A stretch of 64,000 nt of DNA from contig CAZKTA010000001.1 in assembly GCA_964555645.1 (NCBI GenBank), forward strand, positions 282,263 to 346,262, given 5' to 3'. This DNA comes from an uncultured Verrucomicrobiota bacterium. GTDB lineage: Bacteria; Verrucomicrobiota; Verrucomicrobiia; Limisphaerales; DTLC01. The translations under genes and the position numbers were made by a program. The notes below the pieces were generated by a model that was given only the letters and a program-made list of their open reading frames with translations, was not told where the DNA came from and made no database searches. Of this stretch, positions 16,802 through 52,205 are shown one piece after another (the first letter of the stretch is position 1; the number at the start of each line of letters is the position of its first letter).

Positions 16802-19125
<2,324 letters not shown>

Positions 19126-22229: not shown

Positions 22230-22231
22230 TT

Positions 22232-24148: not shown

Positions 24149-24170
24149 AAGCGGGCGTTTGAAAGTTTTG

Positions 24171-24222
24171 GCCGCCGCCCGCGTTGCCGTCGGAGAGGGA
24201 CCGATGGCCGCGGGCGGTCGGC
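24171..24222 (+). other. GC-rich intra-operon hairpin between ftsL and ftsI
   Basis: CCGCCCGCG (24175-24183) pairs with CGCGGGCGG (24209-24217). It can be extended by GCCG/CGGC with one bulge. Confidence 0.35.
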
Positions 24223-24236
24223 AAAAGGTTTGGTAG

Positions 24237-26162
24237 ATGGCAAAAAAAATCCAACTTCGCCGGTTATGGATCATGGCAATCTTGCTGTTTGCCGGGTTTA
24301 TCGGGCTTGGGTACCGGCTGGTTGATCTGCAAGTTTTCCAACATGAACAGCTAAGTTCCATTGCAGAAGAACGACGCCGGCTTAACTTGGTGCGTGAACC
24401 GCGCCGCGGCCAGATCTACGATGTCAGAAGCAATCTTTTGGCCACGAGCACTTTTGTTAAAACGGTTTGTGCCGACCCTGTTTTGGTAGGTAACCAACAG
24501 GCGCTTGTTGCGCGCACACTTGCACCGTTGCTGGAGATTGATCAGGAAGAAATTTACAGGCGGCTTTTCCCGCGCGTGCGGCGCACCGACTCAGGTGAAA
24601 TCGTTACAAACAGGTATGTCGTGCTCAAGCGCAAGGTGCCGGCTGAAACATGGCAGAAGATTTATGAAGCAATGGCAAACCTGCCTTCTGGTCGCGATGA
24701 AAAAGCCTTTACGCGGGCAGAAAGAGTTTTCTGGCGCGGCCTACGGCAGAGGGCGATTTTTGCCGACCCAGTTGATGATCAGCTTCGGGTGTATCCGAAC
24801 CGCTCGTTGCTGGCGCACGTGCTCGGGTACGTCGGCATGCAGGAACGTGACTTCGGCGGTAAACGCCTTATTGAAACGTACGGTCTGGACGGGATCGAGC
24901 TGGCGTTGAACAACCAACTCGCCGGCGTACCGGGGTGGCGTGTGACGGCTAGAGACCCGCGCCGACGCGAGATAGTAGGCTTGCGTCAGCAAGATGTCGA
25001 GCCGCATGATGGTCTGGACGTAGTGTTGACAATTGACCTTGTGCTACAACACACGGTGCGTTCTGCGCTGGTCGAGGCGGTTGCCAAACACCAGCCAGTC
25101 AGTGCAAGTTGTGTGGTTGTCAGGCCGCAAACTGGCGAGGTTCTTGCCATGTGCGTGTTGCCGGATTTCGATCCGAATGAGCCCGGCAGTGCACCTATTG
25201 AAGCGCGTCGGAACCGGCTGATTTGCGATGTGTTCGAACCCGGCTCGACCTTTAAGATAATAGTCGTATCTGCGGCATTGAATGACGGGGTTGTGAGTTT
25301 GACCGACACATTCCATTGTGAAAACGGCAGGTTCGCCTATGCAGGTAAGATACTGCGTGACCATGAGCCGTACGGTGTGTTGACTGTGGAAGAGATCATC
25401 ACCAAATCGTCAAACATCGGTGCAGCCAAGGTGGGGCTTAAACTCGGTGCACCTGCATTGCACAAGTATATAACTGAGTTTGGCTTTGGCACGCGCACCG
25501 GCATTCCGCTTCCGGGTGAAGTTTCCGGCATTGTGCATCCGTTGAAGGATTGGACAAAGCTCTCGATTACAAGGATCCCAATGGGCCATGAGGTTGCTGT
25601 TACACCATTGCAGATGGTCATGGCCATGTGCGCAATAGCAAACGGCGGTTGGCTGATGCGCCCGATGCTCATTGACAGGCTTCAGGATACCGAGGGCCAT
25701 ACCGTAGTGAAATTTCAGCCACAACCCATTAGACAGGTGATAGCCGAGAACACAGCCAAACAAATGGTTCAGGCGCTCAAAACTGTCACCACACCTGAAG
25801 GCACTGGCGCAAAGGCCGCCCTGGAAAACTATACTGTGGCAGGTAAAACCGGCACGGCACAGAAAACAGCCCCAGGTGTGCGCGGGTATGTGCCCGGGAA
25901 ATATTTTTCATCGTTTATCGGGTTTTTCCCCGCAGACAGACCCGAAGTTTGCATCGGTGTGTTTTTGGATGAGCCCAAGAACGGCTATTACGGTGGCCAG
26001 GTCGCTGCCCCGGTTTTCAAGCAAATCGCAACGCGGATCGCGCAATACCTAAACATTCAGCCCGATGTCGTGCAGCAGTCGCCGGTAGGCCACGCTGAAG
26101 GAAAACTCAGCGCAGGCAGGGCAGGGCGTGGTGCTGGACGTGGTAACGGACCGAAAGATTAA
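24237..26162 (+). CDS. ftsI: peptidoglycan D,D-transpeptidase FtsI (class B PBP)
   Basis: N-terminal TM and the transpeptidase motifs STFK, SSN and KTGT. Confidence 0.9.
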   Translation: MAKKIQLRRLWIMAILLFAGFIGLGYRLVDLQVFQHEQLSSIAEERRRLNLVREPRRGQIYDVRSNLLATSTFVKTVCADPVLVGNQQALVARTLAPLLEIDQEEIYRRLFPRVRRTDSGEIVTNRYVVLKRKVPAETWQKIYEAMANLPSGRDEKAFTRAERVFWRGLRQRAIFADPVDDQLRVYPNRSLLAHVLGYVGMQERDFGGKRLIETYGLDGIELALNNQLAGVPGWRVTARDPRRREIVGLRQQDVEPHDGLDVVLTIDLVLQHTVRSALVEAVAKHQPVSASCVVVRPQTGEVLAMCVLPDFDPNEPGSAPIEARRNRLICDVFEPGSTFKIIVVSAALNDGVVSLTDTFHCENGRFAYAGKILRDHEPYGVLTVEEIITKSSNIGAAKVGLKLGAPALHKYITEFGFGTRTGIPLPGEVSGIVHPLKDWTKLSITRIPMGHEVAVTPLQMVMAMCAIANGGWLMRPMLIDRLQDTEGHTVVKFQPQPIRQVIAENTAKQMVQALKTVTTPEGTGAKAALENYTVAGKTGTAQKTAPGVRGYVPGKYFSSFIGFFPADRPEVCIGVFLDEPKNGYYGGQVAAPVFKQIATRIAQYLNIQPDVVQQSPVGHAEGKLSAGRAGRGAGRGNGPKD

Positions 26163-26213
26163 GATGAAAAACCGAGACAATAGGTTTGGGTCGCAAAACG
26201 CACAGACCCGGCG

Positions 26214-27647
26214 TTGCCGAGGAGGGATAGTTCTGTGGAAAAGCGAACGATAAAGTTTGTTGTTGAGGCGTGTGGTGGTGAGCTTGTGTGGGGGACGGCT
26301 GACACGGTTTATAACCGTGTGTGTACCGACTCACGCCAAGTACGTGCTGGCGACCTGTTTTTTGCGATCAAGGGTGAACATTTTGACGGGCATGACTTCG
26401 TAAAGGAAGCTACACGACGCGGCGCGGTGGGGGCGGTAGTCAACCGCCAATTTACACGGGACGGTTTACGTAAAAATTGTGCGCTTGTCGTAGTTGACGA
26501 TACGCGAAATGCACTTGGTCAATTGGCGGCAAAGCACCGTGCTGATCTTGATGTGATGGCTGTTGCCGTTTGTGGGTCGAACGGCAAAACAACTGTTAAA
26601 GAAATGATTGCAGCTGTGCTGCGCCAGCAGTTCAGCACACACTGGAGCCAGGCAAGCTACAACAATGACATAGGCGTACCGCTGACGTTGCTCGGATTAA
26701 CAGCTGCACACGAGGTGCTTGTAGCGGAGGCTGGCACAAATCATCCGGGTGAGCTGGCGCCGCTGCTGCGGATGATCCGGCCGCGTTACGGTGTGCTTAC
26801 CAACATCGGGCGTGAACACATGGAATTTTTTGGTGATCTGGCGGCAGTTGCCCAAGAAGAAGGTTGGTTGGCAGAGTTGTTGCCCGCAGACGGTTTGTTC
26901 GTCATAGACGGTGACGGCGAATGGGCAGACTACTTGCTCGGACGGACCCGTGCGCGCGTGGTAAAGGTTGGGCTGTCAGACAAAAACAATTGGCGTGCAA
27001 CTGACATTCAAGTTGATGTACAGGGCGTAAGTTTCAACGTGATTGCGCCCAATAAAGATTACTGTGGACAGTATCGGGTCAATTTGCTCGGGCGTCATCA
27101 GGCTGTGAATGCTCTGTTTGCGATCGTGGTCGGTGAGGAACTAGGGCTAGGCCGCGCTCTGATCCAGCGCGGCCTGGCCGAATGCAAACCGGCGCCGATG
27201 CGTCTCGAGCTGTCAGAACGACGGGGCATTTGGATTCTGAACGATTCATACAACGCAAACGCAGAATCTATGGCTGCCGCGTTGCGTACATTGGCTGAAC
27301 TGCCGTGCGCAGGCAGGCGCGTGGCTGTTTTGGGTGACATGGCTGAGCAGGGTGATTACAGTCTGGCTGTGCATGCTGAGGTCGGTCGGCTTGCAGCCAA
27401 ACTTGGCATTGGCCAATTGTTTGCCATAGGCAAAATGTCGGCTGTCACAGCACGGGCCGCACGTGAAGCCGGACTGGCTCGCGTGATGGATTTTGCTGAT
27501 CTCGAGACCGCAGCCTGTGCGGTGCGAAAATTCGTTAAACCGGGCGACCTGGTGCTTTTGAAGGCGTCGCGTGCAGCCAGATTCGAGCGGTTGGCTGAGG
27601 CACTCTATGCTTCGGAATCCAAAAAGGCAGAATGTTGTTTTATCTGA
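26214..27647 (+). CDS. murF: UDP-N-acetylmuramoyl-tripeptide--D-alanyl-D-alanine ligase
   Basis: TDSRQVRAGDLFFAIKGEHFDGHDF, VCGSNGKTTVKEM and LNDSYNANAESM are MurF-type rather than MurE-type. Confidence 0.85.
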   Translation: MPRRDSSVEKRTIKFVVEACGGELVWGTADTVYNRVCTDSRQVRAGDLFFAIKGEHFDGHDFVKEATRRGAVGAVVNRQFTRDGLRKNCALVVVDDTRNALGQLAAKHRADLDVMAVAVCGSNGKTTVKEMIAAVLRQQFSTHWSQASYNNDIGVPLTLLGLTAAHEVLVAEAGTNHPGELAPLLRMIRPRYGVLTNIGREHMEFFGDLAAVAQEEGWLAELLPADGLFVIDGDGEWADYLLGRTRARVVKVGLSDKNNWRATDIQVDVQGVSFNVIAPNKDYCGQYRVNLLGRHQAVNALFAIVVGEELGLGRALIQRGLAECKPAPMRLELSERRGIWILNDSYNANAESMAAALRTLAELPCAGRRVAVLGDMAEQGDYSLAVHAEVGRLAAKLGIGQLFAIGKMSAVTARAAREAGLARVMDFADLETAACAVRKFVKPGDLVLLKASRAARFERLAEALYASESKKAECCFI

Positions 27648-28777
27648 GCCAGTTTATTTTGGAAGAATGCAAGGGAACAATCTGGGCAGACTGGTTATCG
27701 CCGCTGCGATTGTTCCGTTACATTACGGTGCGCAGCGCAGGTGCGGCTATAACTGCGCTTGTGCTCAGTTGGTGGCTCGGCCCGAAAATGATTGCGTGGC
27801 TGAAATATCACTTCGGCCAGAATTACCTCGACCGCGCGGAGGCTCAGGGGGATTTAAAGCGGCCAACCACGGCAAAGCTCGGCACGCCGACCATGGGCGG
27901 GTTGCTGATCATTTTGACGTTGAATTTTTCAACCTTGGTTTGGGCGCAATGGAACACGCTGGTGCAACTTACACTGTTGTCAGTGGTTGTTTTGACCGGG
28001 TTGGGGTTTTACGACGATTACCAGAAGGTCGTTCGGGCAAACCCGAGCGGTGTAACTACCCTGGTCAAACTCAGCGTGCAAACTCTGCTGGCGCTGTTTA
28101 TTGGATTGTATCTTTGGCTTGTGCCAGCCACAAGCAAGCTTGTGGCGGACATTATGGTGCCGTTTTACAAGTACCCGCTTGCGACTGGTGTTGCTGCAAT
28201 CGGCATCCTAATCACCGTGGTGGCAATTGTGGGCAGTTCAAACGCAGTGAACCTAACCGATGGATTGGACGGGCTTGCAATCGGATGCACAACAATAGTC
28301 GCATTTGCATTTCTTGCGATGACCTACTTGGCAGGGAATTTTCGCACCGCAATGTACCTGCAAATTCCATACGTACCAGGGGCGGGCGAGCTTACTGTGT
28401 TCTGCGCGGCCATGATCGGAGCTGGCATGGGCTTTTTGTGGTACAACTGTCATCCGGCGCAGGTGTTTATGGGCGACACCGGTTCACTTCCGCTGGGCGG
28501 CGCCCTTGGGATTATTGCGGTGCTGATTCACCAGCCGTTTGTGCTGCTGATTGCCGGTGGCGTGTTCGTCTTGGAAGCAGTATCGGTCATCATTCAGGTA
28601 GGCTACTTCAAATATACCAAGGCACGGTACGGAGTTGGCAGACGCGTGTTTCTGATGTCGCCGTTACACCATCATTTCGAGAAGAAAAACTGGCACGAAT
28701 CACAGGTTGTCACACGGTTTTACATCCTGTGCGTGCTGTTTGTGTTAATTGCACTCAGTACACTCAAGATCAGATGA
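27632..28777 (+). CDS. mraY: phospho-N-acetylmuramoyl-pentapeptide transferase
   Basis: GTPTMGG, NAVNLTDGLDGLA and PLHHHFE motifs. It overlaps the murF end by 16 nt. Confidence 0.95.
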   Translation: MLFYLSQFILEECKGTIWADWLSPLRLFRYITVRSAGAAITALVLSWWLGPKMIAWLKYHFGQNYLDRAEAQGDLKRPTTAKLGTPTMGGLLIILTLNFSTLVWAQWNTLVQLTLLSVVVLTGLGFYDDYQKVVRANPSGVTTLVKLSVQTLLALFIGLYLWLVPATSKLVADIMVPFYKYPLATGVAAIGILITVVAIVGSSNAVNLTDGLDGLAIGCTTIVAFAFLAMTYLAGNFRTAMYLQIPYVPGAGELTVFCAAMIGAGMGFLWYNCHPAQVFMGDTGSLPLGGALGIIAVLIHQPFVLLIAGGVFVLEAVSVIIQVGYFKYTKARYGVGRRVFLMSPLHHHFEKKNWHESQVVTRFYILCVLFVLIALSTLKIR

Positions 28778-29051
28778 GGCTTGATAGTGTCAGTTTTGTG
28801 CCGTTGGCGGTACAAACCAGCTTTGGTACGGCTGGGTTTTGCGGCCGAATTAGCCGGTTACCGACCGCAATTTGTAGTAGTGACATTGACTTTGACGCCA
28901 ATTAGTATGGCGTCGTTGGCTTTGAACAACAAAATGTTGGTGTTTGCAAAAGACCAATTTGCGCCGGAGTTTCTTGAGGGGAAACCCCGCCGCAATAGAC
29001 GTTAAAAAATCAATTCCTCGAGAAAGAAATTTAACAACAAAATCAAGTGTT

Positions 29052-29831
29052 ATGAGTGAACCAAGCTTTAACAATCAGGCGAATCAAACGATCGATCCGC
29101 GAAACGAAGGTCGTGCACGGTTGCGTGTGGCAATTTTTGTTGTGTTGGGACTTCACCTGGCATTGTTGTCAGGCTTACTAATACTCGGCTGCAAACGTGA
29201 GGAACCAATTCCGCCAGCTGAGCAACCGACGTACACCGCGCCGCTGTTTGAACCTACAAATGTGCCCACGATCCAAACATCTGCGCCGCCGGTGGGGCCT
29301 ACAGTTGTTGAGCCGGTACCGACTGTGCCGACACAACCTGTGCCTGAGTCAGCACCAAGTCCGACCGAATACACGGTTGAATCGGGCGACACGTTCTACA
29401 GCATCGGCAAAAAATTTGGTGTGAGCTATCTTGCCATCGAGGCGGCAAACCCTGATGTTGACCCGCGCAAACTTAGGCCTGGCCAAAAGATAATAATCCC
29501 AGCACAAACAACACCCCATATTTCAACCGGACCAGGTACAGCGCCTGCGCCGACGGCTGTTGGTCAGGAAACAATCTATGTCGTTAAGTCAGGTGATACT
29601 TTGACTAAGATCGCCAGACAATTCGGCGTGACCGTGAATGCAATTAGGCGGGCCAACAACCTCACCACAGACAGGATCAAGGTCGGCGACAAGCTGAAGA
29701 TACCAGCTCGGGCAACCGAACCTACTGCACCGGCGCCTGTTGCGCCAACGCCAACTCCGCAAGGTGGGCAACCGGTGCCAGTTCAACCTTTGGGTGCAAC
29801 ACAGCCTGTGGCCAGCCCAGCCCCGGCTTAG
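29052..29831 (+). CDS. bitopic membrane protein with Pro-rich linker and two LysM domains
   Basis: TM segment RVAIFVVLGLHLALLSGLLILG, a P/T/A-rich linker, then YTVESGDTFYSIGKKFGVS...IIIP and YVVKSGDTLTKIARQFGVT...LKIP. The start is at an internal ATG of ORF 28944..29831. Confidence 0.8.
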   Translation: MSEPSFNNQANQTIDPRNEGRARLRVAIFVVLGLHLALLSGLLILGCKREEPIPPAEQPTYTAPLFEPTNVPTIQTSAPPVGPTVVEPVPTVPTQPVPESAPSPTEYTVESGDTFYSIGKKFGVSYLAIEAANPDVDPRKLRPGQKIIIPAQTTPHISTGPGTAPAPTAVGQETIYVVKSGDTLTKIARQFGVTVNAIRRANNLTTDRIKVGDKLKIPARATEPTAPAPVAPTPTPQGGQPVPVQPLGATQPVASPAPA

Positions 29832-29870
29832 TAGTTTTCAGGTAGTTCAGTTGGTCGGCCAACTTAAGCC

Positions 29871-31037
29871 GTGACACACAACCCGAATATAGCCTTGCGC
29901 TTTGCCGTTGGAGCCATTGTGTTGGCGACGGGTGTGTTATTGTCTTTTGGACTTGTAATGGTCTACAGCACCACCATGGTTCAGTGGGGTACATATTATC
30001 TCACCCGACAGCTTATGTGGGCATTGTTGGGTGTGGGTGTGTGTGTCGTTGCCGCAACGCTTGATTACGCTTTGTTCAAGAAACTTGCGTGGCTGTTGTT
30101 TTTTGCTGCGGTTGTATTTTTGGTGCTTGTGTTGGTGTCGCCTTTGGGTATCGAACGCAATAATGCAAGACGCTGGTTTGGCTACGGCAGAACCTCGCTG
30201 TTCCAACCGTCTGAACTTGCAAAGTTGGCGCTTATCATTCTGCTGGCGTGGTACTGCGACAGGTTCGAACGCCAGATGAAATCATTCCGGCGCGGTTTGC
30301 TTGTGCCCGGGCTGTTGATTGGATTGGTTGGTGGTCTTGTTTTTGTCGAGCCTGACTTTGGTACGGGGATTTTGATCGGCACAATAGGCGGTGCGATGCT
30401 GATTGTTGCCGGGGTGAGCCTTCGGCATGCTGTGCCGTTGGCGCTTTGTGCACTTTTGGGACTTGGAATGTTCGCGTGGCACAACCCGAAGTGCTTTGAG
30501 CGGATAATACCCGGCTGGCTCGATCAAGAGAAAAACAAGGAGGGTGCAGCTTACCAGTCTTACCAGGCGAAACTCGCGATAGGATCAGGTGGCTGGAAGG
30601 GCCTTGGCATAGCCAACGGGGTGCACAAGCTCGGTTTTGTACCCGAGGCACACACGGATTTCATTTTTTCTGTGATTGGCGAGGAAACTGGTCTTATTGG
30701 GACGTTGGGTGTGATAGCGGGTTTCGCAGTATTTGTTGTGAGCGGGATTATAACTGCCAAGTATGCCCGAGACACCTTTGGGACGTTATTGGCTTTTGGT
30801 ATTACGTTTTGGATCGGGTTGCAAGCAGCGATTAATATTGGTGTTGTAACGAGTGCGCTGCCAAACAAGGGACTGCCCTTGCCGCTCATCAGCTACGGCG
30901 GGTCGAATCTTGTTGTTACTCTTTGCAGTGTGGGGATCCTGTTGAGCATCGGGCTGCGTGCGTTGGCTTGCCAGAGTGCCCATTTTGAAGAGGTTGAACC
31001 GGACGAAATTGCTGAACCGGAACTTAGCCGATGCTAG
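29871..31037 (+). CDS. ftsW: SEDS peptidoglycan glycosyltransferase FtsW
   Basis: Polytopic protein with the QPSELAKLALI motif and the PLPLISYGGSN C-terminal motif. Confidence 0.9.
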   Translation: MTHNPNIALRFAVGAIVLATGVLLSFGLVMVYSTTMVQWGTYYLTRQLMWALLGVGVCVVAATLDYALFKKLAWLLFFAAVVFLVLVLVSPLGIERNNARRWFGYGRTSLFQPSELAKLALIILLAWYCDRFERQMKSFRRGLLVPGLLIGLVGGLVFVEPDFGTGILIGTIGGAMLIVAGVSLRHAVPLALCALLGLGMFAWHNPKCFERIIPGWLDQEKNKEGAAYQSYQAKLAIGSGGWKGLGIANGVHKLGFVPEAHTDFIFSVIGEETGLIGTLGVIAGFAVFVVSGIITAKYARDTFGTLLAFGITFWIGLQAAINIGVVTSALPNKGLPLPLISYGGSNLVVTLCSVGILLSIGLRALACQSAHFEEVEPDEIAEPELSRC

Positions 31038-32215
31038 GTGCACGCACACAGTACAGCGTTGCAATTGCCTGCGGTGGCACGGGTGGGCATCTTTTCCCTG
31101 GACTTGCTGTGGCCGAAGAGTTGGGTCGGCTCAACGTTGCTGTATCACTGTTGGTTTCACCCAAGGACGTTGACCAACGCGCTGTACAAGCGGTGCTCGG
31201 GAGGTCTGGGGTGAGTGTTGTAACCCTGCCAGCAGCTGCATTTCAAACCGGCAGCAGAATCGCTTTCATTCGCGGGCTTGTTAGATCGTACCGGCTGGTG
31301 TCGGGTGCATTTCGCAAGACGCCGCCCGTGGCAGTCCTTGCGATGGGCGGTTTTACAAGCGTTGCACCTGTGTTGGCCGGCAGACGCATCGGCGCGCGGG
31401 TGTTTCTCCACGAATCAAACGTTGTGCCGGGACGTGCAAACCAGTTTATTGCGCGGTTTGCTGATGAAGCTTTTCTTGGCTTTGCCGAAGCAGCACAGCG
31501 GCTTAACTGCAGAAAAAAGACCGTCACAGGCACCCCAGTACGAGCTGAAATCACAAGGCGTGACCTCGCCCAAAGTCGTGTTGCGCTTGGGCTTAAGCCA
31601 GACAGCCCGACGGTGCTTGTGATGGGCGGGAGTCAGGGTGCAACAGCGATCAACAATCTTGTGGCGGCTACTGTGGTTGAGATAAATAAGAGGCTTCCGT
31701 CCGTACAGTGGATTCACCTGACCGGGCCGAAAGACCAGGAAAGCCTCAAGGCAATTTATGCGCAGGCCGGCGTCAGGTCCATAGTAATGGCGTTTTGTGA
31801 TAAAATTCATCTTGCGCTGGGGGCGGCCACGGTGGCAGTTAGCCGGGCCGGCGCATCTGCGCTTGCCGAATTTGCAGCAGTGCAACTGCCTGCAATTCTG
31901 ATCCCGTATCCCAAGGCAGCTGGCAACCATCAGTTGCATAACGCGCGTACATTTGAGCGTGCCGGGGCAGCTATTGTTCTTGAGCAACACACTGCAAAAC
32001 CGGAGTTGCTTACGCGGACTGTGACGGAACTTGTTGAGAACACCGAGCTGCAACAAAAAATGCGGGCAGCACTTGGGCAGTTGCACAAGCCAAATTCTGC
32101 GGGTGAGATTGCAGACGCCATTTTGGGTGTTGTTATGCCTAAAGGGCGGTTGGCTTGCGAGTGCATTAGCGCAACTTCACCGCCGCCGAATCAGCATCTG
32201 TCTGTTATGCCGTGA
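31031..32215 (+). CDS. murG: UDP-GlcNAc:lipid I GlcNAc transferase MurG
   Basis: ACGGTGGHLFPGLAVAEEL N-terminal glycine loop and the later HQLHNA motif. Confidence 0.9.
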   Translation: MLGARTQYSVAIACGGTGGHLFPGLAVAEELGRLNVAVSLLVSPKDVDQRAVQAVLGRSGVSVVTLPAAAFQTGSRIAFIRGLVRSYRLVSGAFRKTPPVAVLAMGGFTSVAPVLAGRRIGARVFLHESNVVPGRANQFIARFADEAFLGFAEAAQRLNCRKKTVTGTPVRAEITRRDLAQSRVALGLKPDSPTVLVMGGSQGATAINNLVAATVVEINKRLPSVQWIHLTGPKDQESLKAIYAQAGVRSIVMAFCDKIHLALGAATVAVSRAGASALAEFAAVQLPAILIPYPKAAGNHQLHNARTFERAGAAIVLEQHTAKPELLTRTVTELVENTELQQKMRAALGQLHKPNSAGEIADAILGVVMPKGRLACECISATSPPPNQHLSVMP

Positions 32216-33159
32216 AAGCGTGTGTAACAAGCAAAGCCTTTAGTAGGACACATGCAGCCGAGCTTGCTGCCCAACTGTGCAGCTGTGTATCAGCCAGCAC
32301 TGTGGTGCGGGCGGGCGAACCACTTGCGCTCCACACCACATTGCGGGTTGGTGGACCGGCCGACGTTTACGTTGAGCCAGCTTGCGAGGAGGACCTGAGT
32401 GCTGTGTTGTTGTTTTGTCGTGAACATCATTTGCCGTGGCTGGTGATTGGACGTGGGTCAAACCTTCTTGTCAAAGACGGCGGAGTCCGAGGCGTTGTGA
32501 TTTGCCTGGCAGGGGCGGCATTCAGCAGGATCGAATTGGCCGGGCACCGCCTTGTGTGTGGCGCTGGGGCGAAATTAAGGGCCGTATCGGATGCAGCCAC
32601 AACCCATGGCTTAAGCGGGTTTGAATTTATGGATGGAATTCCGGGTAGCGTTGGGGGCGCGTTGCGTATGAACGCGGGTGCAATGGGTGCATGGACGCTG
32701 GATGTTGTTGAGCGCGTACGATGCATGGGGCGTGATGGCATAGCCAGGGAAGTTACGCGAGCTGAATTGATTGGCGAATATCGTGGGTGCGCGTTTTTTG
32801 ATGAGCACATAGCTTTGAGCGCGGTATTTTGTGGGCAACGAGCCGACCCAGCTCAAATTGCTGAGCGAGTTAGTTTATTCAGGCAAAAACGGTTGCAGAC
32901 ACAGCCTGTTGGGCCGAGTGCAGGCTGCGTTTTCAAGAATCCACACTGCATACCCGCTGGTAGGTTGATTGACGAGCTTGGGCTTAAATGCACGCGCATA
33001 GGCGGTGCATACGTGTCTGATAAACATGCGAATTTCATCCTTACAGACCAAGGTGCAACGGCAACAGACGTACTTAGGTTGATCGAGTTGATCAGGGAAC
33101 GCGTCAGGTCGGAACGCGGTATTGAATTGGAGCCCGAGGTGCGGGTTGTGGGTGAGTAG
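32212..33159 (+). CDS. murB: UDP-N-acetylenolpyruvoylglucosamine reductase
   Basis: LHTTLRVGGPADVYVEP, GRGSNLLV and FKNP patterns. Confidence 0.9.
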   Translation: MKACVTSKAFSRTHAAELAAQLCSCVSASTVVRAGEPLALHTTLRVGGPADVYVEPACEEDLSAVLLFCREHHLPWLVIGRGSNLLVKDGGVRGVVICLAGAAFSRIELAGHRLVCGAGAKLRAVSDAATTHGLSGFEFMDGIPGSVGGALRMNAGAMGAWTLDVVERVRCMGRDGIAREVTRAELIGEYRGCAFFDEHIALSAVFCGQRADPAQIAERVSLFRQKRLQTQPVGPSAGCVFKNPHCIPAGRLIDELGLKCTRIGGAYVSDKHANFILTDQGATATDVLRLIELIRERVRSERGIELEPEVRVVGE

Positions 33160-33220
33160 AGGTGAGCAACGTTTGGCTTCGCAGTGCTGGTGGTTTTGCA
33201 AGCTACAGACATGGTGTCAG

Positions 33221-34144
33221 ATGCACGAACGGCTTAACATAACTGTGATGCTTGGCGGCCCGAGCGCCGAACGCGAGATCTCGCTTCGCTCGGGTGCTGC
33301 AGTGGCGCAGGCATTGCGCTCTTTGGGGCATACAGTGCACGAGCTCGACCCGAAGGACGCCTCTTGGGTTTTGCCAGTTGGTACGGACGTGGTTTTTTTG
33401 GCGTTGCACGGTACATATGGCGAAGATGGCACAGTGCAACAGTCTCTCGATGCACTTGGAGTGCCATATACCGGCTGTGACGCGGAGGCAAGTCGGGTTG
33501 CGTTTGATAAATTGCTTGCAAAACAACGATTTGTTGCCGCTGGTGTGCCTACGGCAAGGTACACTACGGTTACTTCGCCCGAGGCGAGCTGGCCGATAGG
33601 ATGGGATCCGCCTGTGGTGCTGAAGCCGGTCAGACAAGGCTCAAGTGTGGGGCTACAGTTTGTCGAGCGTGTATCTGATTGGGCTGGAGCGTTAAGTGAA
33701 GCTTTCCGGCACGACACGCAGGTGTTGGTTGAGGAAAAAATCACAGGCCGTGAAGTAACAGTTGGGATTTTAGGTGAGCAACCTTTGCCGATTGTTGAAG
33801 TGCGGCCGAAGTCGGGGCGGTACGATTATCGCAGCAAATACACCATAGGTGCAACCGAGTATTTGTGTCCTGCACCTTTTGATGCGGAAGCGACCGCCCG
33901 TATTCAGTCTGTCGGCCTGGCTGCGTTTAGGGCGATCGGCGGGCGCGATTACGCCCGTGTTGACATGATGGTAACGTCAGACGGGCAACCTGTTGTTCTG
34001 GAGGTAAACACGTTGCCGGGAATGACGGAGACAAGCTTGTTGCCGAAAGCAGCAGCAGCAGCAGGGATTTCTTATGCCGAGTTATGCGAGCGGATGGTTA
34101 AGCTTGCATTGAGGCGTGCGCCGGCTGTTAAGTGCAGTGGTTAA
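33221..34144 (+). CDS. ddl: D-alanine--D-alanine ligase
   Basis: ITVMLGGPSAEREISLRSG, VLKPVRQGSSVG and LEVNTLPGMTETSLLP. The start is at an internal ATG of ORF 33122..34144. Confidence 0.9.
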   Translation: MHERLNITVMLGGPSAEREISLRSGAAVAQALRSLGHTVHELDPKDASWVLPVGTDVVFLALHGTYGEDGTVQQSLDALGVPYTGCDAEASRVAFDKLLAKQRFVAAGVPTARYTTVTSPEASWPIGWDPPVVLKPVRQGSSVGLQFVERVSDWAGALSEAFRHDTQVLVEEKITGREVTVGILGEQPLPIVEVRPKSGRYDYRSKYTIGATEYLCPAPFDAEATARIQSVGLAAFRAIGGRDYARVDMMVTSDGQPVVLEVNTLPGMTETSLLPKAAAAAGISYAELCERMVKLALRRAPAVKCSG

Positions 34145-34249: not shown

Positions 34250-35218
34250 ATGTGGTTTTTCAGGAACAAACAATCAAACCGGCGTTTAGGCAGGCGCGAG
34301 TTGCTTGATGTGAAGGCGCGTTCAGCCGCGGTACGACGGAGGCGGCTGCATTGGAGTGCGGTCGCGTTTGGTTTATCTATTGGGACGGTCTTATTTGGGT
34401 ATTTAGCTTGGCAGACAGTTAACTGGTCACTCGAGAGGTTTGTTTACCAAAACCCGGCCTATGCGATTAACCGGATTGACGTTTACACCGACGGCGTAAT
34501 TTCGCCTGAACAAATCCGGCTTTGGACGGGTGTCAGGCCAGGGCAAAATCTGCTTGCCCTGGACCTTTCGGCTGTCAAGAGGAACCTGGAACGAGTGCCG
34601 CATGTTAAGGTGGCAGCAGTCGAGCGTGTATTGCCCCACACGTTGCGGATTCGTGTAATCGAACGCGAACCGTTGGCTGTTGTTTACTTGCCGCAACAGC
34701 GTGCGTCAGGTGGATTTGAAATGCAGGCACTGTTTCTGGATGAGGACGGCTATGTACTTCCACCGCTTGGCAAATCGCAATGTGTTGGGCCCAGTGCGCA
34801 ATTTGCCGAGCAGTACCCGGTAATTTTGGGTATTAAGCCTGCGGAACTTGCGCCGGGTAAACGCCTTGACCTGAGCACGCACAGAAATTTGAAAGCCGCG
34901 TTGGACTTGATCGTCGCATTCGACCGGTCGCAAATGGTTGGTTTGGACAGCCTCCAGTGCATTGACATTTCGTCTGCAGATGTGCTGGAGGTTACAACAC
35001 AGCAAGGGGCTAAAATCACTTTTCCAGTTTCAGGGCTCGCCAGGCAATTGCGGCGTTGGCGCGAGATTTACGAGCTTGGTCAACGACTTGGCCGCACGAT
35101 TGCATCGGTTGACCTGGCTGTATCGGATAACATCCCGGTGCGGTGGGCCAATGCGCGGCCAAACTCGGCTGGCCAGGAGCAACCAAAACAAAACCACACA
35201 AGCAAGCGCGATGTTTAA
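34250..35218 (+). CDS. ftsQ: cell division protein FtsQ (POTRA)
   Basis: N-terminal TM followed by the POTRA-like segment INRIDVYTDGVISPEQIRLWTGVRPGQNLLALDLSAVKRNLE. Confidence 0.7.
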   Translation: MWFFRNKQSNRRLGRRELLDVKARSAAVRRRRLHWSAVAFGLSIGTVLFGYLAWQTVNWSLERFVYQNPAYAINRIDVYTDGVISPEQIRLWTGVRPGQNLLALDLSAVKRNLERVPHVKVAAVERVLPHTLRIRVIEREPLAVVYLPQQRASGGFEMQALFLDEDGYVLPPLGKSQCVGPSAQFAEQYPVILGIKPAELAPGKRLDLSTHRNLKAALDLIVAFDRSQMVGLDSLQCIDISSADVLEVTTQQGAKITFPVSGLARQLRRWREIYELGQRLGRTIASVDLAVSDNIPVRWANARPNSAGQEQPKQNHTSKRDV

Positions 35219-36437
35219 TCAAAAACCGATCATTGTCGGACTCGAGATCGGCACATCAAAAGTGTGTGCTGCAGTGGGCGAGTTTGATCCTGAATTATCT
35301 AGCCTGAAGATAATCGGCTTAGGTCAAGCATGTTCACGCGGTGTGCGCAAGGGCGAAATTGTTGACCCTGAACTGGCCGAAGAAGACATTCGCGCTGCTA
35401 TTGCGCAGGCTGAACAGATGGCAGATGTCGAGGTGCGTAGTGTTGTGTTGGGGGTGACTGGTAGTCACCTGCGCGCGCAAAACAATCGCGGTCTGCACCC
35501 GATTTTTTCCGCCGATCGCGTGATTACCGAAGATGACGTTCAGCACGTCATCAAGAATGCGAAGGTGGTGAATCTGCCTGCGCAAGACGTGATTGTGCAC
35601 ACGATTCGGCAACATTTTTTTGTAGATGGGCAGGGTGGCATTTCGAATCCAGTCGGTATGCTTGGTACAAAGCTGGAAGTCGAGATGCATGTCATGCACG
35701 GTAACCAAAATAGACTCCAAAATGCAATTCGCGTCGTCAAAGGGCTTCAGCTTGAGGTCGAGGACATTGTGTTCAACGGACTTGCTTCTGCGCTTGCCCT
35801 ACTGACAAATGAAGCCAAGGAACTGGGCGCGCTGGTCATAGACATTGGCGCGGGCACGACAGATTACGCACTGTATGCGCAAGGTGTTATCAGGCACACA
35901 GGCGTAATTGCAGTTGGAGGCGACCATTTGTCGAACGACATAGCCATCGGATTGCGCGTGCCACTGAGCCGGGCCGAACAATTGAAAATTGAGTGCGGGG
36001 CTGCGCTGGTCGATGATGAATGCAGAGGCAAAACGATCTCCATCAAGAACGGCGACGGTACACCTCTGAGGACCATCAGCCTTGAAAACCTGCGCACGAT
36101 AATGGCGTTGCGTGTGGAGGAAATCTTTCAGATCGTGGCGGAGCAGTTGCATGAGGCCGGGTTGTTGGATTACCTGCGCGCGGGCGTGTTTTTGTGCGGG
36201 GGCGGCGCGCGAATCCCGAATGTGACAACGGTTGCCGAGCGAATTTTCCAGGCACCCGCGCAAATTGGCCGCGCCAACGCAATCAACGGGTTGATTTCGA
36301 CCCTTGACCAGCCAGAATTTGCAACAGCGATCGGTCTTCTGAAGTTTGGATCGTTCAAGCACAAGGGAGACACCTATAAGGCAAGTTTGTCCACCGGGCT
36401 TAAGGGCACAATAAGTCAGTTATTTCGCAGGCTTTAA
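35211..36437 (+). CDS. ftsA: cell division protein FtsA
   Basis: IIVGLEIGTSKVCAAVGE, VIDIGAGTTDYALY and FLCGGGARIP actin-fold motifs, plus the amphipathic C-terminus GLKGTISQLFRRL. The longer ORF 34938.. overlaps ftsQ and is rejected. Confidence 0.9.
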   Translation: MFNQKPIIVGLEIGTSKVCAAVGEFDPELSSLKIIGLGQACSRGVRKGEIVDPELAEEDIRAAIAQAEQMADVEVRSVVLGVTGSHLRAQNNRGLHPIFSADRVITEDDVQHVIKNAKVVNLPAQDVIVHTIRQHFFVDGQGGISNPVGMLGTKLEVEMHVMHGNQNRLQNAIRVVKGLQLEVEDIVFNGLASALALLTNEAKELGALVIDIGAGTTDYALYAQGVIRHTGVIAVGGDHLSNDIAIGLRVPLSRAEQLKIECGAALVDDECRGKTISIKNGDGTPLRTISLENLRTIMALRVEEIFQIVAEQLHEAGLLDYLRAGVFLCGGGARIPNVTTVAERIFQAPAQIGRANAINGLISTLDQPEFATAIGLLKFGSFKHKGDTYKASLSTGLKGTISQLFRRL

Positions 36438-36452: not shown

Positions 36453-37766
36453 ATGAGCACACAAGACAAACAACACGTGGTTCAGCAGCAGACCCAGCAT
36501 AGCGGCGAAATGCAGGTACGTTTTTTTGTAATTGGACGCGCAGGTGTTGCCATTGCTGAAGAACTGATTAGCCGCGGCTTCAACCCAAACAACTTTGTCG
36601 CAATCTATCGTGGCGATGCCTTACCTGCCAGTTCGCCCGTTTTGCAAAAGGTCGTCTTGCCGGTTGCACCACCCCCAAACACGTTGGGGTGGGAATCTCC
36701 GGAAGTACAGGACCGGGTCAAAGCGCAACTCGGTGGGAGTAACTTTGTGTTTGTTGTCGCGGCGCTTGGTGGATTGACAGGACGCGAGGTTGCGCCTGTG
36801 GTTGCGAAGCTTGCAAAAGACATGGGTCATATTGTGTTTGGATTTGTCACGTTACCGTTCGATTGCGAGGGTAGCTTACGTCAGAGTAGAGCGTGTGCGG
36901 CGCTGCAATTGTTGAAAAACTGTGCAGATGGTGTGCTTTGTTTACACAATCAAAAGCTTTGGAAATTGATCCCCGAAAACATGCCGTTGCCAAGTACATT
37001 CAAAATCTCAGGTGCATTATTGGCCGACGCAATCCACGGGTTTTGGCGGATGCTTGTGTGCAAGGGACTGATTGACGTTCACTTGAGCGAGTTGTGTATG
37101 GTGATTGGCGGACCGGACAACCATACTGCGTTTGGCGTTGCGGATGTATCGGGACAGAACCGCGCTCGTAAAGCAGTCGAAAAACTTTTGGCAAACCCGA
37201 CGCTGGATTCTGGGCAGGCGCTGCGTCAGGCCGAAGCTGTTGTTGTGGGGGTATTTGGCGGAGCGGACCTTGCGATGGCTGAGGTTAATTCAGTTGTTGA
37301 GCAAATCGGGCGGCATTGCCCGAACGTTCCTGTCATAACCGGCGCAGCTATTGACGAGTCGCTGGGTTCAAGGTTGGTGCTGGTGTTGTTTGCCGGACGG
37401 AGCCTCGGCAGGCCTGCGTGCGCAATGGCAACGCAAACGGCCGGTTCAACTTCAGCTTCAAATCTGGCGGTCACATCGCAAACGGCGGACCTTGAATTGT
37501 ATTTGATTCAGTCAAGTACAAGCCAACGACCGCATTCACGTGCCATACCGCCGCCGCCGGAACTGACGCAGGAAAAAATGCAGGAGTTACTTTCCAAGCA
37601 AAGCCTCAAAGGCCCAGCTGCAAAAATCCCGGTCAAATTGCGTCAGGGCCAGTTAAAGCTCGAGATAATCTCTAAAGGCAGGTTCGACAAAAGCGAACCA
37701 ACGATTTACAAGGGCGAAGACCTGGATCTGCCAACGTACTTACGGCGCGGTGTGCGGCTGAATTGA
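36453..37766 (+). CDS. ftsZ: FtsZ homolog with degenerate GTP-binding and GTPase motifs
   Basis: Colinear by eye with FtsZ (VFVVAALGGLTGREVAPVVAKLAKDMGHIVFGFVTLPFDCEG). Its C-terminal EDLDLPTYLRRG resembles the FtsA-binding peptide. It is the last gene of the dcw cluster. Confidence 0.8.
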   Translation: MSTQDKQHVVQQQTQHSGEMQVRFFVIGRAGVAIAEELISRGFNPNNFVAIYRGDALPASSPVLQKVVLPVAPPPNTLGWESPEVQDRVKAQLGGSNFVFVVAALGGLTGREVAPVVAKLAKDMGHIVFGFVTLPFDCEGSLRQSRACAALQLLKNCADGVLCLHNQKLWKLIPENMPLPSTFKISGALLADAIHGFWRMLVCKGLIDVHLSELCMVIGGPDNHTAFGVADVSGQNRARKAVEKLLANPTLDSGQALRQAEAVVVGVFGGADLAMAEVNSVVEQIGRHCPNVPVITGAAIDESLGSRLVLVLFAGRSLGRPACAMATQTAGSTSASNLAVTSQTADLELYLIQSSTSQRPHSRAIPPPPELTQEKMQELLSKQSLKGPAAKIPVKLRQGQLKLEIISKGRFDKSEPTIYKGEDLDLPTYLRRGVRLN

Positions 37767-52047: not shown

Positions 52048-52205
52048 AACGGGCTTAATAATAGTTGGGCTGGACCCGATTGCAAAAACGAAATCCGAGC
52101 TAGCCGCCTTGCCAGAGGCCGCCGACCAACTGCAAAAATTACTGGCGCACAGCATTAATCGTGATATTGTTTTGCCCGACAAGACAAACACTAGTAAGCC
52201 AAAGA

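What the first reader, a model, noticed from the sequence alone, without database searches (positions are those of the whole stretch)
36453..37766. dcw-encoded FtsZ homolog that appears to have lost every canonical GTP-binding/GTPase motif but keeps the FtsA-binding tail
A by-eye alignment with E. coli FtsZ (recalled from memory) is colinear over the whole globular domain. The residues that contact nucleotide are nevertheless substituted:
- T1 VIGVGGGGGNA becomes VIGRAGVAIA
- NTD becomes YRG
- T3 GLGAGANPEVG becomes TLGWESPEVQ
- T4 tubulin signature GGGTGTG becomes GGLTGRE
- T7 synergy loop NVDFAD becomes DVHLSE

In contrast, the extreme C-terminus (GEDLDLPTYLRRGVRLN) still resembles the conserved FtsA/ZipA-binding peptide (DYLDIPAFLRKQ). 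The neighbouring FtsA has intact ATP-binding motifs and a membrane-targeting helix.

The ORF is uninterrupted (437 aa), so it does not look like a decaying pseudogene. That would imply a nucleotide-independent, or differently regulated, FtsZ-derived scaffold at the end of an otherwise intact division cluster.
Basis: partly seen in the sequence, partly recalled or inferred. Interest (0 to 1): 0.8.

Follow-up and report, generated by a model that had tools for sequence, protein, structure and literature searches.

The report
FtsZ division protein without GTP pocket
An uncultured Verrucomicrobiota lineage keeps its cell-division gene ftsZ intact and under selection, although the loops that normally bind and sense GTP are replaced or free to vary, which suggests a division scaffold that no longer runs on GTP in the usual way.

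Summary
ORF 36453-37766 (+) encodes a 437-aa FtsZ homolog, the last gene of an intact dcw cluster. It has the FtsZ fold: AF2 pLDDT is above 90 for most of residues 21-318, and TM to solved FtsZ is 0.75-0.86.

- **Lost:** the phosphate-binding loops. T1 is VIGRAGVA, T2 is YRGD, T3 has no glycine motif in any register, and T4 is GGLTGRE.
- **Kept:** T5 (E, R), T6 (N), the H7 Phe, and an acidic residue at the T7 catalytic position (D212E).

The protein scores 132 bits against the NCBIfam FtsZ cut-off of 295. The loss is clade-wide: orthologs at 54-94% identity from at least ten independent assemblies sit at the same locus. Selection is purifying (dN/dS about 0.15, against 0.05 for FtsA). T3 has become unconstrained (13% pairwise identity, against 78% in sister lineages). 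The replacement residues (R, R, R/E) and the 43-aa C-terminal tail are conserved. FtsZ has gone from one of the best-conserved dcw proteins to the worst.

My best reading is a pseudo-GTPase FtsZ that still docks to FtsA. This is a new variant of a known family, and I found no prior description. Two things remain untested: the biochemistry, and whether a second canonical ftsZ lies elsewhere in the genome.

The parts
36453..37766 (+). ftsZ ortholog, 437 aa, with a degenerate nucleotide site
   Evidence: Pfam Tubulin and FtsZ_C. PDB FtsZ E = 3e-34. TIGR00065 scores 132 bits against a cut-off of 295.2. AF2 model and Foldseek match FtsZ.
36528..36557 (+). T1 loop region, residues 26-35, VIGRAGVAIA. 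E. coli G17V, G20R, G21A, G23V, N24A; G19 and G22 kept.
   Evidence: R or K at the G20 position in all 9 degenerate-clade sequences.
36606..36617 (+). T2 region, residues 52-55, YRGD in place of NTDA. T44R is invariant in the clade.
36660..36710 (+). T3 / start of H3, residues 70-86, PVAPPPNTLGWESPEVQ. The glycine-rich GLGAGAN motif is absent, the stretch is 8-9 aa shorter, and it is unconstrained within the clade.
   Evidence: three different registers, none conserving the motif. Pairwise identity 0.13 in the clade against 0.78 in sister lineages. pLDDT dips to 67 here.
36762..36791 (+). T4 tubulin-signature region, residues 104-113, ALGGLTGREV (G107L, T110R, G111E).
36855..36881 (+). T5 loop, residues 135-143, PFDCEGSLR. 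Retained; equivalents of E. coli E138 and R142.
   Evidence: Invariant in all 117 relatives.
37065..37094 (+). T7 loop / H8, residues 205-214, GLIDVHLSEL (N207D, D209H, F210L, A211S, D212E).
37407..37634 (+). Disordered linker, residues 319-394.
   Evidence: pLDDT below 50. Highest dN/dS of the gene, 0.2-0.37.
37635..37763 (+). Conserved 43-aa C-terminal module KLRQGQLKLEIISKGRFDKSEPTIYKGEDLDLPTYLRRGVRLN. Its last ~15 aa resemble the FtsA/ZipA-binding peptide.
   Evidence: Nearly invariant in 103 relatives. dN/dS 0.02-0.05. Found at the C-terminus of FtsZ-length proteins or fragments in 733 representative clusters.
35211..36437 (+). ftsA, 408 aa. Overlaps ftsQ by 8 nt and ends 15 nt before ftsZ.
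   Evidence: TIGR01174 scores 378 bits against a cut-off of 176. Start fixed by orthologs. C-terminal amphipathic segment has hydrophobic moment 0.53-0.61.
34250..35218 (+). ftsQ (POTRA_1).
22823..34144 (+). Upstream dcw genes: mraW, ftsI, one Mur ligase, mraY, a LysM protein, ftsW, murG, murB, ddl.

Best explanation
This is the orthologous dcw-cluster FtsZ of an uncultured Verrucomicrobiota lineage (class Verrucomicrobiia, known only from metagenome assemblies), and it has become a pseudo-GTPase.

**Shown here:**
- It keeps the two-domain FtsZ fold and is co-transcribed with ftsA.
- It keeps a very strongly conserved 43-aa C-terminal module that ends in a canonical-looking FtsA-binding peptide.
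- It is under purifying selection.
- The phosphate-binding half of its nucleotide pocket (T1-T4) is rebuilt with bulky charged residues: G20R, T44R, G107L, T110R, G111E.
- The gamma-phosphate-sensing T3 loop has lost all constraint.

**Inferred:**
- It no longer binds or hydrolyses GTP in the canonical, Mg-dependent, glycine-loop way. It therefore cannot use the GTP/GDP switch that drives treadmilling.
- It still works in division as an FtsA-tethered scaffold. It is probably a constitutive, nucleotide-independent polymer or oligomer, because the T7/H8 face and the S9-loop interface residues stay conserved.
- The FtsA / FtsQ / FtsW-FtsI machinery supplies the dynamics.
- It may represent an intermediate on the road to the FtsZ-free division seen in Planctomycetota and Chlamydiota.
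For: **Homology and fold.**. Foldseek TM (target-normalised) to S. aureus, E. coli and M. tuberculosis FtsZ is 0.75-0.86.

**Motif loss.** Reproduced by three alignment methods. Of 73 positions invariant in a canonical reference set, 35 are changed here, against 7 in near-canonical sisters. The protein fails the FtsZ equivalog threshold, 132 against 295 bits.

**Orthology.** In L002, L003, L004, L006, L007, L008 and L010 the degenerate protein lies directly after a complete ftsA, and L009 and L005 show the same arrangement on contigs cut within ftsA. Where the contig extends downstream (not L006 or L008) the same genes follow as in the window.

**Not an artefact.** About ten independent assemblies from NCBI, ENA, JGI and Logan carry it.

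**Selection.** dN/dS is 0.155 (dS 0.41) and 0.148 (dS 0.94). The GTPase domain gives 0.12-0.19 and the tail 0.02-0.05.

**T3 is unconstrained; T1, T4, T5 and T7 are still conserved with new residues**.

**Stepwise series in the tree.** Near-canonical, then P0040/P0103 (G107K), then P0015/P0007/P0008 (G20R in P0007/P0008, G107R, T3 motif lost), then the core clade (T110R, D212E).

**Lineage-specific acceleration.**
- FtsZ is the least conserved dcw protein between the most divergent clade members (for example 54% against FtsA 78%) and among the least in every comparison: 77% against FtsA 90% in the closest pair, where MurG (70%) and the LysM protein (74%) are lower.
- In a near-canonical sister pair it is among the best conserved: 83% against FtsW 65% and FtsQ 70%.
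- ATP synthase beta is 96-100% identical across what appears to be the same clade. That link rests on one ATP-beta hit having the same longest-contig length as a clade FtsZ and was not verified.

**From memory, not checked here.** Nucleotide-free M. jannaschii FtsZ polymerises about as well as the GTP form (Huecas and Andreu 2004). If so, a nucleotide-less FtsZ polymer is physically plausible.
Against: - No biochemical or cell-biological data exist for any member; all are uncultured.
- The ribose/base contacts are retained: E138, R142, N165, F182, and N/D186 in most clade members. Thr and Gly of the signature are kept, and the catalytic D212 is only changed to Glu. That is what one might expect if some nucleotide or other ligand were still bound.
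- The three conserved new arginines could bind phosphate themselves.
- Erosion is not statistically concentrated in motif positions: 20/35 against 15/38, Fisher p = 0.16.
- A second, canonical ftsZ elsewhere in the genome could not be looked for.
Confidence: 0.6

Rival explanations
1. The pocket is re-engineered, not dead. The protein still binds a nucleotide or another phosphorylated ligand. The new conserved arginines (G20R, T44R, T110R) would replace the glycine-loop backbone amides and Mg2+. Assembly would then be regulated by a different ligand, or by binding without hydrolysis (a class-II pseudo-GTPase, like the alpha-tubulin N-site).
For: - T5 E and R, T6 N and H7 F are invariant, and N/D186 is kept in most clade members.
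- The replacement residues R, R, R/E are themselves conserved across the clade.
- T1, T4, T5 and T7 are as conserved within the clade as in sister lineages.
- The acidic T7 residue is kept as Glu.
Against: - The T3 loop, which senses the gamma-phosphate, is unconstrained.
- G107L puts a bulky side chain into the signature loop.
- The window protein and its 94% relative have also lost the residue at position 186 (Gly), and the window protein alone has P164H.
- T5 and H7 residues may be conserved for structural reasons only.
Confidence: 0.2
2. The genome holds a second, canonical FtsZ (or BtubA/B-type tubulin) elsewhere. The dcw copy would then be a specialised non-catalytic partner or regulator that co-assembles with it or caps it, as ARC3 or non-hydrolysing tubulin subunits do.
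For: - Pseudo-enzymes usually arise beside an active paralog (general knowledge).
- Only 64 kb of the genome could be inspected.
- Some Verrucomicrobiota (Prosthecobacter) carry extra tubulin-family genes (PMC1845146).
Against: - The degenerate gene occupies the ancestral ftsA-ftsZ position in every locus recovered.
- The erosion is graded along orthologs rather than following a visible duplication.
- No second Tubulin/FtsZ ORF is in the window or among the called genes of the related loci.
- Most bacteria have a single ftsZ.
Confidence: 0.12
3. It is a decaying relic. Division has already become FtsZ-independent, and the gene is drifting towards loss.
For: - FtsZ is the fastest-evolving dcw protein in the more divergent comparisons within this clade.
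- It has the longest branches in the family tree.
- One MAG (RMH97) has the gene split into two ORFs with an altered C-terminus.
- PVC relatives have lost ftsZ altogether (PMC12283558).
Against: - dN/dS is about 0.15 over dS up to and beyond saturation, with an intact 437-440-aa ORF in all other assemblies.
- The tail has dN/dS 0.02-0.05.
- The C-domain and T5/T7 are as conserved as in sister lineages.
- ftsA, which is lost together with ftsZ in Planctomycetota and Chlamydiota (PMC12283558), is fully intact.
Confidence: 0.05
4. It is a sequencing, assembly or alignment artefact.
For: None beyond the general possibility.
Against: - The same substitutions appear in independent assemblies from four repositories.
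- Registers are confirmed by HMMER and MAFFT.
- The reading frame is uninterrupted.
Confidence: 0.01

Closest known systems
Canonical bacterial FtsZ (E. coli, S. aureus, M. tuberculosis; TIGR00065, PF00091 + PF12327)
   Same: Two-domain fold (TM 0.75-0.86). Position after ftsA at the end of the dcw cluster. Disordered linker plus a C-terminal D-x-D-[ILV]-P-x-[FY]-[LIM]-R-[RK] peptide. T5 and T6 residues and the H7 Phe.
   Different: About 25% identity. T1, T2, T3 and T4 are not glycine-rich. T7 is DVHLSE. It scores 132 bits against the 295-bit equivalog cut-off. There is an extra ~28-aa conserved segment upstream of the tail peptide.
Near-canonical FtsZ of related uncultured Verrucomicrobiota (P0009-P0013, P0016, P0107 and others; annotated 'cell division protein FtsZ')
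   Same: Same family, the same 43-aa tail, the same dcw context (L011, L012), and the same T7 His (D209H).
   Different: They keep GVGGAG..N, NTD, GLGTGGDPE and GGGT/AxTG, and they pass TIGR00065 (314 bits). They differ from the canonical reference set at 7 of 73 invariant positions, against 35 of 73 here.
Verrucomicrobium spinosum FtsZ
   Same: A verrucomicrobial, dcw-encoded FtsZ described as among the most divergent bacterial FtsZs, with an essential C-terminal region (PMC1845146, PMC12283558, PMC9871819).
   Different: V. spinosum retains the tubulin signature GGGTGSG and was called 'canonical' (PMC1845146). The window protein does not retain it.
Tubulin-superfamily members that lack nucleotide motifs: the plant ARC3 FtsZ-like domain and some archaeal FtsZ paralogs
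   Same: An FtsZ-derived fold without the canonical GTP-binding motifs. Motif-lacking archaeal paralogs are noted in PMC2875224; ARC3 is from memory.
   Different: Those are extra paralogs beside an active FtsZ, and they lack the FtsA-binding tail and the dcw position. This one is the orthologous dcw copy, with the tail.
PseudoGTPase septins
   Same: A filament-forming GTPase family in which some members have degenerated into non-binding or non-hydrolysing subunits yet still assemble through the former nucleotide interface (PMC10731463).
   Different: An unrelated fold (P-loop). Those septins act in hetero-oligomers with active subunits.
FtsZ-less PVC bacteria (Planctomycetota, Chlamydiota)
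   Same: The same superphylum. They show that division can become independent of FtsZ GTPase activity (PMC12283558, PMC5147048).
   Different: They have lost ftsZ and ftsA entirely. Here both genes are retained and selected.

Membership tests
FtsZ (bacterial cell-division tubulin homolog) | Two-domain tubulin/FtsZ fold (Rossmann-like N-domain, H7, C-domain) | tested here: met
   Pfam PF00091 and PF12327. AF2 pLDDT is above 90 over most of residues 21-318. Foldseek top 50 are all FtsZ, TM 0.71-0.86.
FtsZ (bacterial cell-division tubulin homolog) | Score at or above the curated equivalog cut-off (NCBIfam TIGR00065, 295.2 bits) | tested here: not met
   132.2 bits, and only residues 84-312 aligned. 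Orthologs are annotated 'hypothetical protein' at NCBI.
FtsZ (bacterial cell-division tubulin homolog) | Tubulin signature motif GGGTG[ST]G (T4) | tested here: not met
   GGLTGRE.
FtsZ (bacterial cell-division tubulin homolog) | Glycine-rich T1 loop GGGGxN, T2 NTD and T3 GxGxGxxP | tested here: not met
   GRAGVA, YRG, and no T3 motif in any of three registers.
FtsZ (bacterial cell-division tubulin homolog) | T7 synergy loop NxDxxD that supplies the catalytic acids to the next subunit | tested here: not met
   DVHLSE. Only the last acidic position survives, as Glu. The His at 209 is shared with 99 of 117 relatives.
FtsZ (bacterial cell-division tubulin homolog) | Conserved C-terminal peptide that binds FtsA/ZipA | tested here: inconclusive
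   The sequence LDLPTYLRRG resembles the consensus and is nearly invariant, with dN/dS 0.02-0.05. Binding to FtsA was not testable.
FtsZ (bacterial cell-division tubulin homolog) | Gene located after ftsQ-ftsA at the 3' end of the dcw cluster | tested here: met
   The ftsA-ftsZ adjacency is seen in all nine orthologous loci (L002-L010), and the longer contigs show the full upstream dcw order.
FtsZ (bacterial cell-division tubulin homolog) | GTP binding, GTP hydrolysis, GTP-dependent polymerisation | not testable with these tools
   Needs purified protein.
Accessory FtsZ-like paralogs (ARC3, FtsZl1/FtsZl2, archaeal extra FtsZ/CetZ) | Present in addition to a canonical FtsZ, outside the dcw position, without the FtsA-binding tail | tested here: not met
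   It occupies the orthologous dcw slot and has the tail. The existence of another FtsZ in the genome was not testable.
PseudoGTPase (functional class, not a homology family) | Derived from a GTPase family, catalytic and binding motifs lost, fold and selection retained | tested here: met
   Motif loss, fold, purifying selection. Actual loss of nucleotide binding was not testable.

The most novel reading that the evidence does not exclude
A free-living, peptidoglycan-making bacterial lineage divides with an FtsZ that has given up the GTP switch altogether. The former phosphate pocket would be filled by conserved arginines and a glutamate. These would pair directly with the acidic T7 loop of the next subunit, giving a nucleotide-free FtsZ polymer tethered by FtsA. 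The wider verrucomicrobial family already carries T7 D209H (99 of 117) and the signature change T108A (74 of 117). That family would then record a stepwise evolutionary route from GTP-driven treadmilling FtsZ to the FtsZ-free division of Planctomycetota and Chlamydiota.
Probability: 0.3. Interest if true: 0.9.

Novelty: new variant of a known kind. Interest (0 to 1): 0.72.

Why it matters
GTP-driven treadmilling of FtsZ is regarded as the organising principle of bacterial cytokinesis. The nucleotide site is also a drug target and the basis of the HMMs used to annotate FtsZ.

A dcw-encoded ortholog that is clearly under selection, still carries the FtsA-docking tail, and has dismantled its phosphate-binding and gamma-phosphate-sensing loops would be a natural separation-of-function allele. 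It would ask what FtsZ does when it cannot cycle GTP.

It also gives the PVC superphylum an intermediate state between FtsZ-dependent division and the unexplained FtsZ-free division of Planctomycetota and Chlamydiota. Reviews currently describe that transition only as presence or absence of the gene (PMC12283558, PMC5147048).

On the practical side, these proteins fall below the curated FtsZ threshold and are deposited as 'hypothetical protein'. Presence/absence surveys may therefore score such genomes as FtsZ-less.

Tried and rejected
- **Genome-collection scan wasted.** A genome-contig scan with the single protein returned only an unrelated Saccharibacteria FtsZ. I therefore could not name the organism or search whole genomes for a second ftsZ.
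- **Exact look-ups failed.** Look-ups of the window FtsZ and of the 100%-identical ATP synthase beta P0288, which sits on a 523-kb contig, found no record. The source assembly could not be reached.
- **Motif enrichment not significant.** I tested whether substitutions are concentrated in motif positions. They are not: 20/35 against 15/38, Fisher p = 0.16. The whole globular domain is accelerated, the N-domain somewhat more. The informative signal turned out to be loss of constraint in T3 specifically.
- **Pseudogene rejected**.
- **Artefact rejected** (independent assemblies).
- **Horizontal acquisition not indicated.** GC content is like the neighbours and synteny is conserved.
- **No RNA element.** Rfam found only a tRNA in the window.
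- **Small ORFs downstream are spurious.** The 59-aa ORFs called downstream of ftsZ in L009 and L010 are not conserved beyond the closest relative.
- **Tool gaps.** The AFDB fold library was not available. AF2 coordinates were not exposed, so pocket geometry could not be inspected.
- **Literature.** Searches, and reading, found statements that verrucomicrobial FtsZ is very divergent. None described loss of the GTP-binding motifs. Pilhofer et al. 2008 is not in the held library.
Full report
**What is there.** The ORF at 36453-37766 (+) encodes a 437-aa protein. Its ATG lies 15 nt after the ftsA stop, behind an AAGGTG Shine-Dalgarno-like sequence. No terminator-like site scoring above background lies between the two genes. 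It is the last gene of a complete division and cell-wall cluster:

- mraW (22823-23758)
- ftsI (24237-26162)
- one Mur ligase (26214-27647)
- mraY (27632-28777)
- a LysM protein (28944-29831)
- ftsW, murG, murB, ddl
- ftsQ (34250-35218)
- ftsA, whose true start is 35211 (408 aa)

The protein matches Pfam Tubulin (only residues 84-172) and FtsZ_C, and solved FtsZ structures at E = 3e-34. An AlphaFold2 model built on a 103-sequence alignment is confident over most of residues 21-318. Blocks of ten residues average pLDDT 80-97, dipping to 67 at residues 71-80, the T3 region. Residues 320-415 are disordered. Foldseek places the model on FtsZ structures with target-normalised TM 0.75-0.86 at about 25% identity. 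It is therefore a genuine FtsZ-fold protein in the FtsZ position.

HMMER alignment to M. jannaschii FtsZ pairs GGLTGRE with GGGTGTG and DVHLSE with NVDFAD. Alignment to S. aureus FtsZ pairs VIGRAGVA with GVGGGGNN and IYR-GD with INTDGQ. A MAFFT alignment with E. coli FtsZ and 120 relatives gives the same registers. My recalled E. coli sequence was checked against PDB entries. In E. coli numbering the changes are:

| Loop | Changes |
|---|---|
| T1 | G17V, G20R, G21A, G23V, N24A |
| T2 | N43Y, T44R, D45G |
| T3 | no glycine motif in any of three alternative registers; the S3-H3 stretch is 8-9 residues shorter |
| T4 | G107L, T110R, G111E |
| T7 | N207D, D209H, F210L, A211S, D212E |

I defined a canonical reference set of E. 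coli plus five fully canonical verrucomicrobial FtsZs. Of 73 positions invariant in that set, 35 differ in the window protein. Only 7 differ in the near-canonical sisters P0009 and P0013. The protein scores 132 bits against NCBIfam TIGR00065, whose cut-off is 295. P0013 scores 314. NCBI accordingly labels orthologs 'hypothetical protein'.

Not everything is lost. These features are retained:

- T5 (PFxxEGxxR, with the E138 and R142 equivalents)
- T6 N165
- the H7 Phe (F182)
- the first two Gly plus Thr and Gly of the signature
- an acidic residue at the catalytic D212 position

Some of the deviation is also not specific to this gene. Among 117 relatives, 99 carry His at D209, 109 carry Ala at G21, and 74 carry GGGAGTG (T108A). 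Only four are fully canonical. From memory and unchecked, T108A is the E. coli ftsZ3 change, which impairs GTP binding. The window protein is thus the extreme end of a continuum within a large verrucomicrobial FtsZ family. The literature already calls this FtsZ family one of the most divergent among bacteria (PMC9871819, PMC1845146, PMC12283558), without mentioning loss of the nucleotide motifs.

**The loss is clade-wide and orthologous.**

- Eight protein clusters at 51-94% identity share the degenerate pattern.
- Their genes come from independent NCBI MAGs (GCA_025061935.1, GCA_041082115.1 and others), ENA and JGI metagenomes, and Logan assemblies.
- In every recovered locus the gene sits directly after ftsA (a complete 408-aa ftsA wherever the contig reaches that far). 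Where the contig extends downstream, it is followed by the same AP-endonuclease-family, DksA-like, rpmG and rpsR genes as in the window.
- In a neighbour-joining tree the core clade (window, P0001-P0006) is monophyletic. It is nested inside P0007/P0008/P0015 and then P0040/P0103, and it has the longest root-to-tip distances: 1.8-1.95 against a median of 1.38.
- The motifs change stepwise along this series. G107K/R comes first. Then come loss of the T3 motif, F210L, and (in P0007/P0008) G20R, T44R and G111E. T110R and D212E come last.

**Selection.** Nei-Gojobori estimates on unsaturated pairs give dN/dS of 0.155 (P0002-P0003, dS 0.41) and 0.148 (window-P0002, dS 0.94). By region:

| Region | dN/dS |
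|---|---|
| N-terminal (GTPase) domain | 0.12-0.19 |
| C-domain | 0.08-0.09 |
| linker | 0.22-0.32 |
| 43-aa tail | 0.02-0.05 |
| FtsA, same genome pairs | 0.05 |

The gene is therefore not a pseudogene, but it is several-fold less constrained than FtsA. Between the more divergent clade members FtsZ is the least conserved protein of the cluster, for example 54% against FtsA 78% and AP endonuclease 89%. In the closest pair it is 77% against FtsA 90% and MraY 91%, with only MurG (70%) and the LysM protein (74%) lower. In a near-canonical sister pair it is among the best conserved: 83% against FtsW 65%, FtsQ 70% and MurG 68%. Between P0013 and the window it is the worst of eight proteins, at 45%. 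ATP synthase beta is 96-100% identical across what appears to be the same clade; that link rests only on one ATP-beta hit sharing its longest-contig length (24,395 bp) with a clade FtsZ and was not verified.

The most telling result is regional. I compared five diverse core-clade members with five sister-lineage members of similar overall divergence (0.60 against 0.64 pairwise identity over the globular domain). The T3 stretch is 13% identical within the core clade and 78% identical within the sisters. T1, T4, T5, T7 and the C-domain are as conserved in the clade as in the sisters. The gamma-phosphate sensor has been released from constraint, while the rest of the former pocket is held in a new conserved state (R/K at G20, R at T44, R at T110, E at G111).

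**The tail.** The last 43 residues (KLRQGQLKLEIISKGRFDKSEPTIYKGEDLDLPTYLRRGVRLN) are nearly invariant across 103 aligned relatives. A search of 1.84 billion representative proteins found this module in 733 clusters (E ≤ 0.001). Among the best 150 listed, nearly all matches lie at the very C-terminus of proteins of FtsZ length (about 430-460 aa) or of contig-cut fragments. Its final part follows the FtsA/ZipA-binding consensus; I compared it with E. coli DYLDIPAFLRKQ and, from memory, B. subtilis LDIPTFLRNR. The cognate FtsA passes its equivalog threshold easily, 378 against 176 bits. It shows the phosphate-1, phosphate-2 and adenosine motifs in its translation. It ends in an amphipathic segment with a hydrophobic moment like that of the E. 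coli membrane-targeting helix. Binding itself is not shown.

**Most likely mechanism.**

*Shown:* fold, orthology, selection, motif replacement, loss of constraint in T3, and tail conservation.

*Inferred:* the protein cannot bind and hydrolyse GTP in the canonical way. That follows from bulky or charged residues in the glycine loops, no T2/T3 to coordinate Mg2+ and the gamma-phosphate, and an altered T7. It therefore lacks the GTP/GDP switch needed for treadmilling. It continues to act in division as an FtsA-tethered scaffold. The T7/H8 face and the S9-loop residues (the D269, L270 and L272 equivalents) remain conserved, so it probably still self-associates head-to-tail. Nucleotide-free FtsZ is reported to polymerise (Huecas and Andreu 2004; from memory). 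A speculative refinement is that the new arginines and glutamate in the former phosphate site pair directly with the acidic T7 residues of the next subunit.

**Rivals.**

1. A re-engineered ligand pocket, favoured by the retained ribose/base contacts and the conserved arginines.
2. A non-catalytic partner of a second canonical FtsZ elsewhere in the genome. This could not be tested. No other tubulin-family ORF is in the window, and genome-wide searching was blocked.
3. A decaying relic, contradicted by dN/dS and by the intact ftsA.
4. An artefact, excluded by the independent assemblies.

**Comparison with what is known.** By homology, fold and genomic position this is an FtsZ. It fails several features that define the family operationally: the equivalog score, the tubulin signature, T1-T3, and the canonical T7.

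- It differs from known motif-less tubulin-superfamily proteins (ARC3, extra archaeal paralogs; PMC2875224) in being the orthologous dcw copy and carrying the FtsA-binding tail.
- It differs from V. spinosum FtsZ, which is divergent but keeps GGGTGSG and is essential (PMC1845146, PMC12283558).
- Functionally it is best described as a pseudo-GTPase, analogous to degenerate septins (PMC10731463).
- Reviews of PVC division describe Verrucomicrobiota as retaining a classical FtsZ-based machinery and treat FtsZ loss as a presence/absence event in Planctomycetota and Chlamydiota (PMC12283558, PMC5147048).

I found no description of this intermediate state in the searchable literature. The key 2008 paper by Pilhofer et al. 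was not available.

**Verdict.**

- It is a new variant of a known family.
- It would surprise a cell-division specialist.
- It offers a natural experiment on what FtsZ does without its GTP cycle.
- Confidence in the pseudo-GTPase scaffold reading is moderate (about 0.6), because all evidence is from sequence and because a second ftsZ cannot be excluded.

Noticed in passing
Relatives P0009-P0120: The wider verrucomicrobial FtsZ family already departs from the canonical motifs. Of 117 relatives, 99 have His in place of the T7 Asp209, 109 have G21A in T1, and 74 have GGGAGTG (T108A) in the tubulin signature. Only 4 are fully canonical. Several other members show independent erosion: P0015, P0040, P0052, P0056/69, P0091, P0103.
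   Followed up: partly
window 28944-29831 (+); also L002, L006, L008, L011: A protein with two LysM domains sits between mraY and ftsW, where murD usually lies, and this is conserved in related loci. L012 has a MurD-like ligase there instead. Only one Mur ligase is in the window's cluster, and murC, murD and a second murE/F are not in the cluster.
   Followed up: partly
window 22151-22810 (+): A 219-aa ORF with no Pfam match lies directly upstream of mraW, in the position usually held by mraZ.
   Followed up: no
P0121 + P0122 (MAG with locus-tag prefix RMH97): In one MAG the orthologous gene is called as two ORFs (180 and 285 aa), with about 13 residues missing in H7 and a frameshifted C-terminus. 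It is 98-99% identical to intact copies. This is either assembly error or a real recent disruption.
   Followed up: partly
P0005, P0123 (NCBI MAGs): NCBI annotates the degenerate orthologs as 'hypothetical protein' because they fall below the TIGR00065 cut-off. Presence/absence surveys could therefore score these genomes as lacking FtsZ.
   Followed up: yes
window 34938-36437 versus 35211-36437: The mechanical ORF for ftsA starts at TTG 34938 (499 aa). Orthologs show the real start is ATG 35211 (408 aa, MFNQKPIIVGLEIGT), overlapping ftsQ by 8 nt.
   Followed up: yes
window 36945-36947 (His165) and 37011-37013 (Gly187): The window protein alone has P164H in the T6 'PN' motif; its 94% relative P0001 keeps Pro. 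The window protein and P0001 have Gly at the guanine-contacting 186 position, where the rest of the clade keeps Asp or Asn. This suggests erosion of the base-binding side is still continuing.
   Followed up: partly
window 17668-19125 (+), ATP synthase beta; P0288: A 100%-identical ATP synthase beta is in the protein database on a 523-kb contig (NCBI and Logan), but neither it nor the window FtsZ could be located by exact look-up. Clade members share 96-100% ATP-beta identity while their FtsZ falls to 54%.
   Followed up: partly
window 37767-38264: A ~500-nt gap follows ftsZ. It holds a weak terminator-like hairpin right at the stop codon (37765-37783). It also holds a 59-aa ORF that is conserved only in the 94% relative and is probably not a gene.
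   Followed up: partly
window 40713-40785 (-): A single tRNA gene, the only Rfam match in the window.
   Followed up: no
window 42391-44880 (+) and 51070-52191 (-): A membrane H+-pyrophosphatase and a Ppx/GppA-family phosphatase are encoded nearby. There is no evident link to the ftsZ finding.
   Followed up: no
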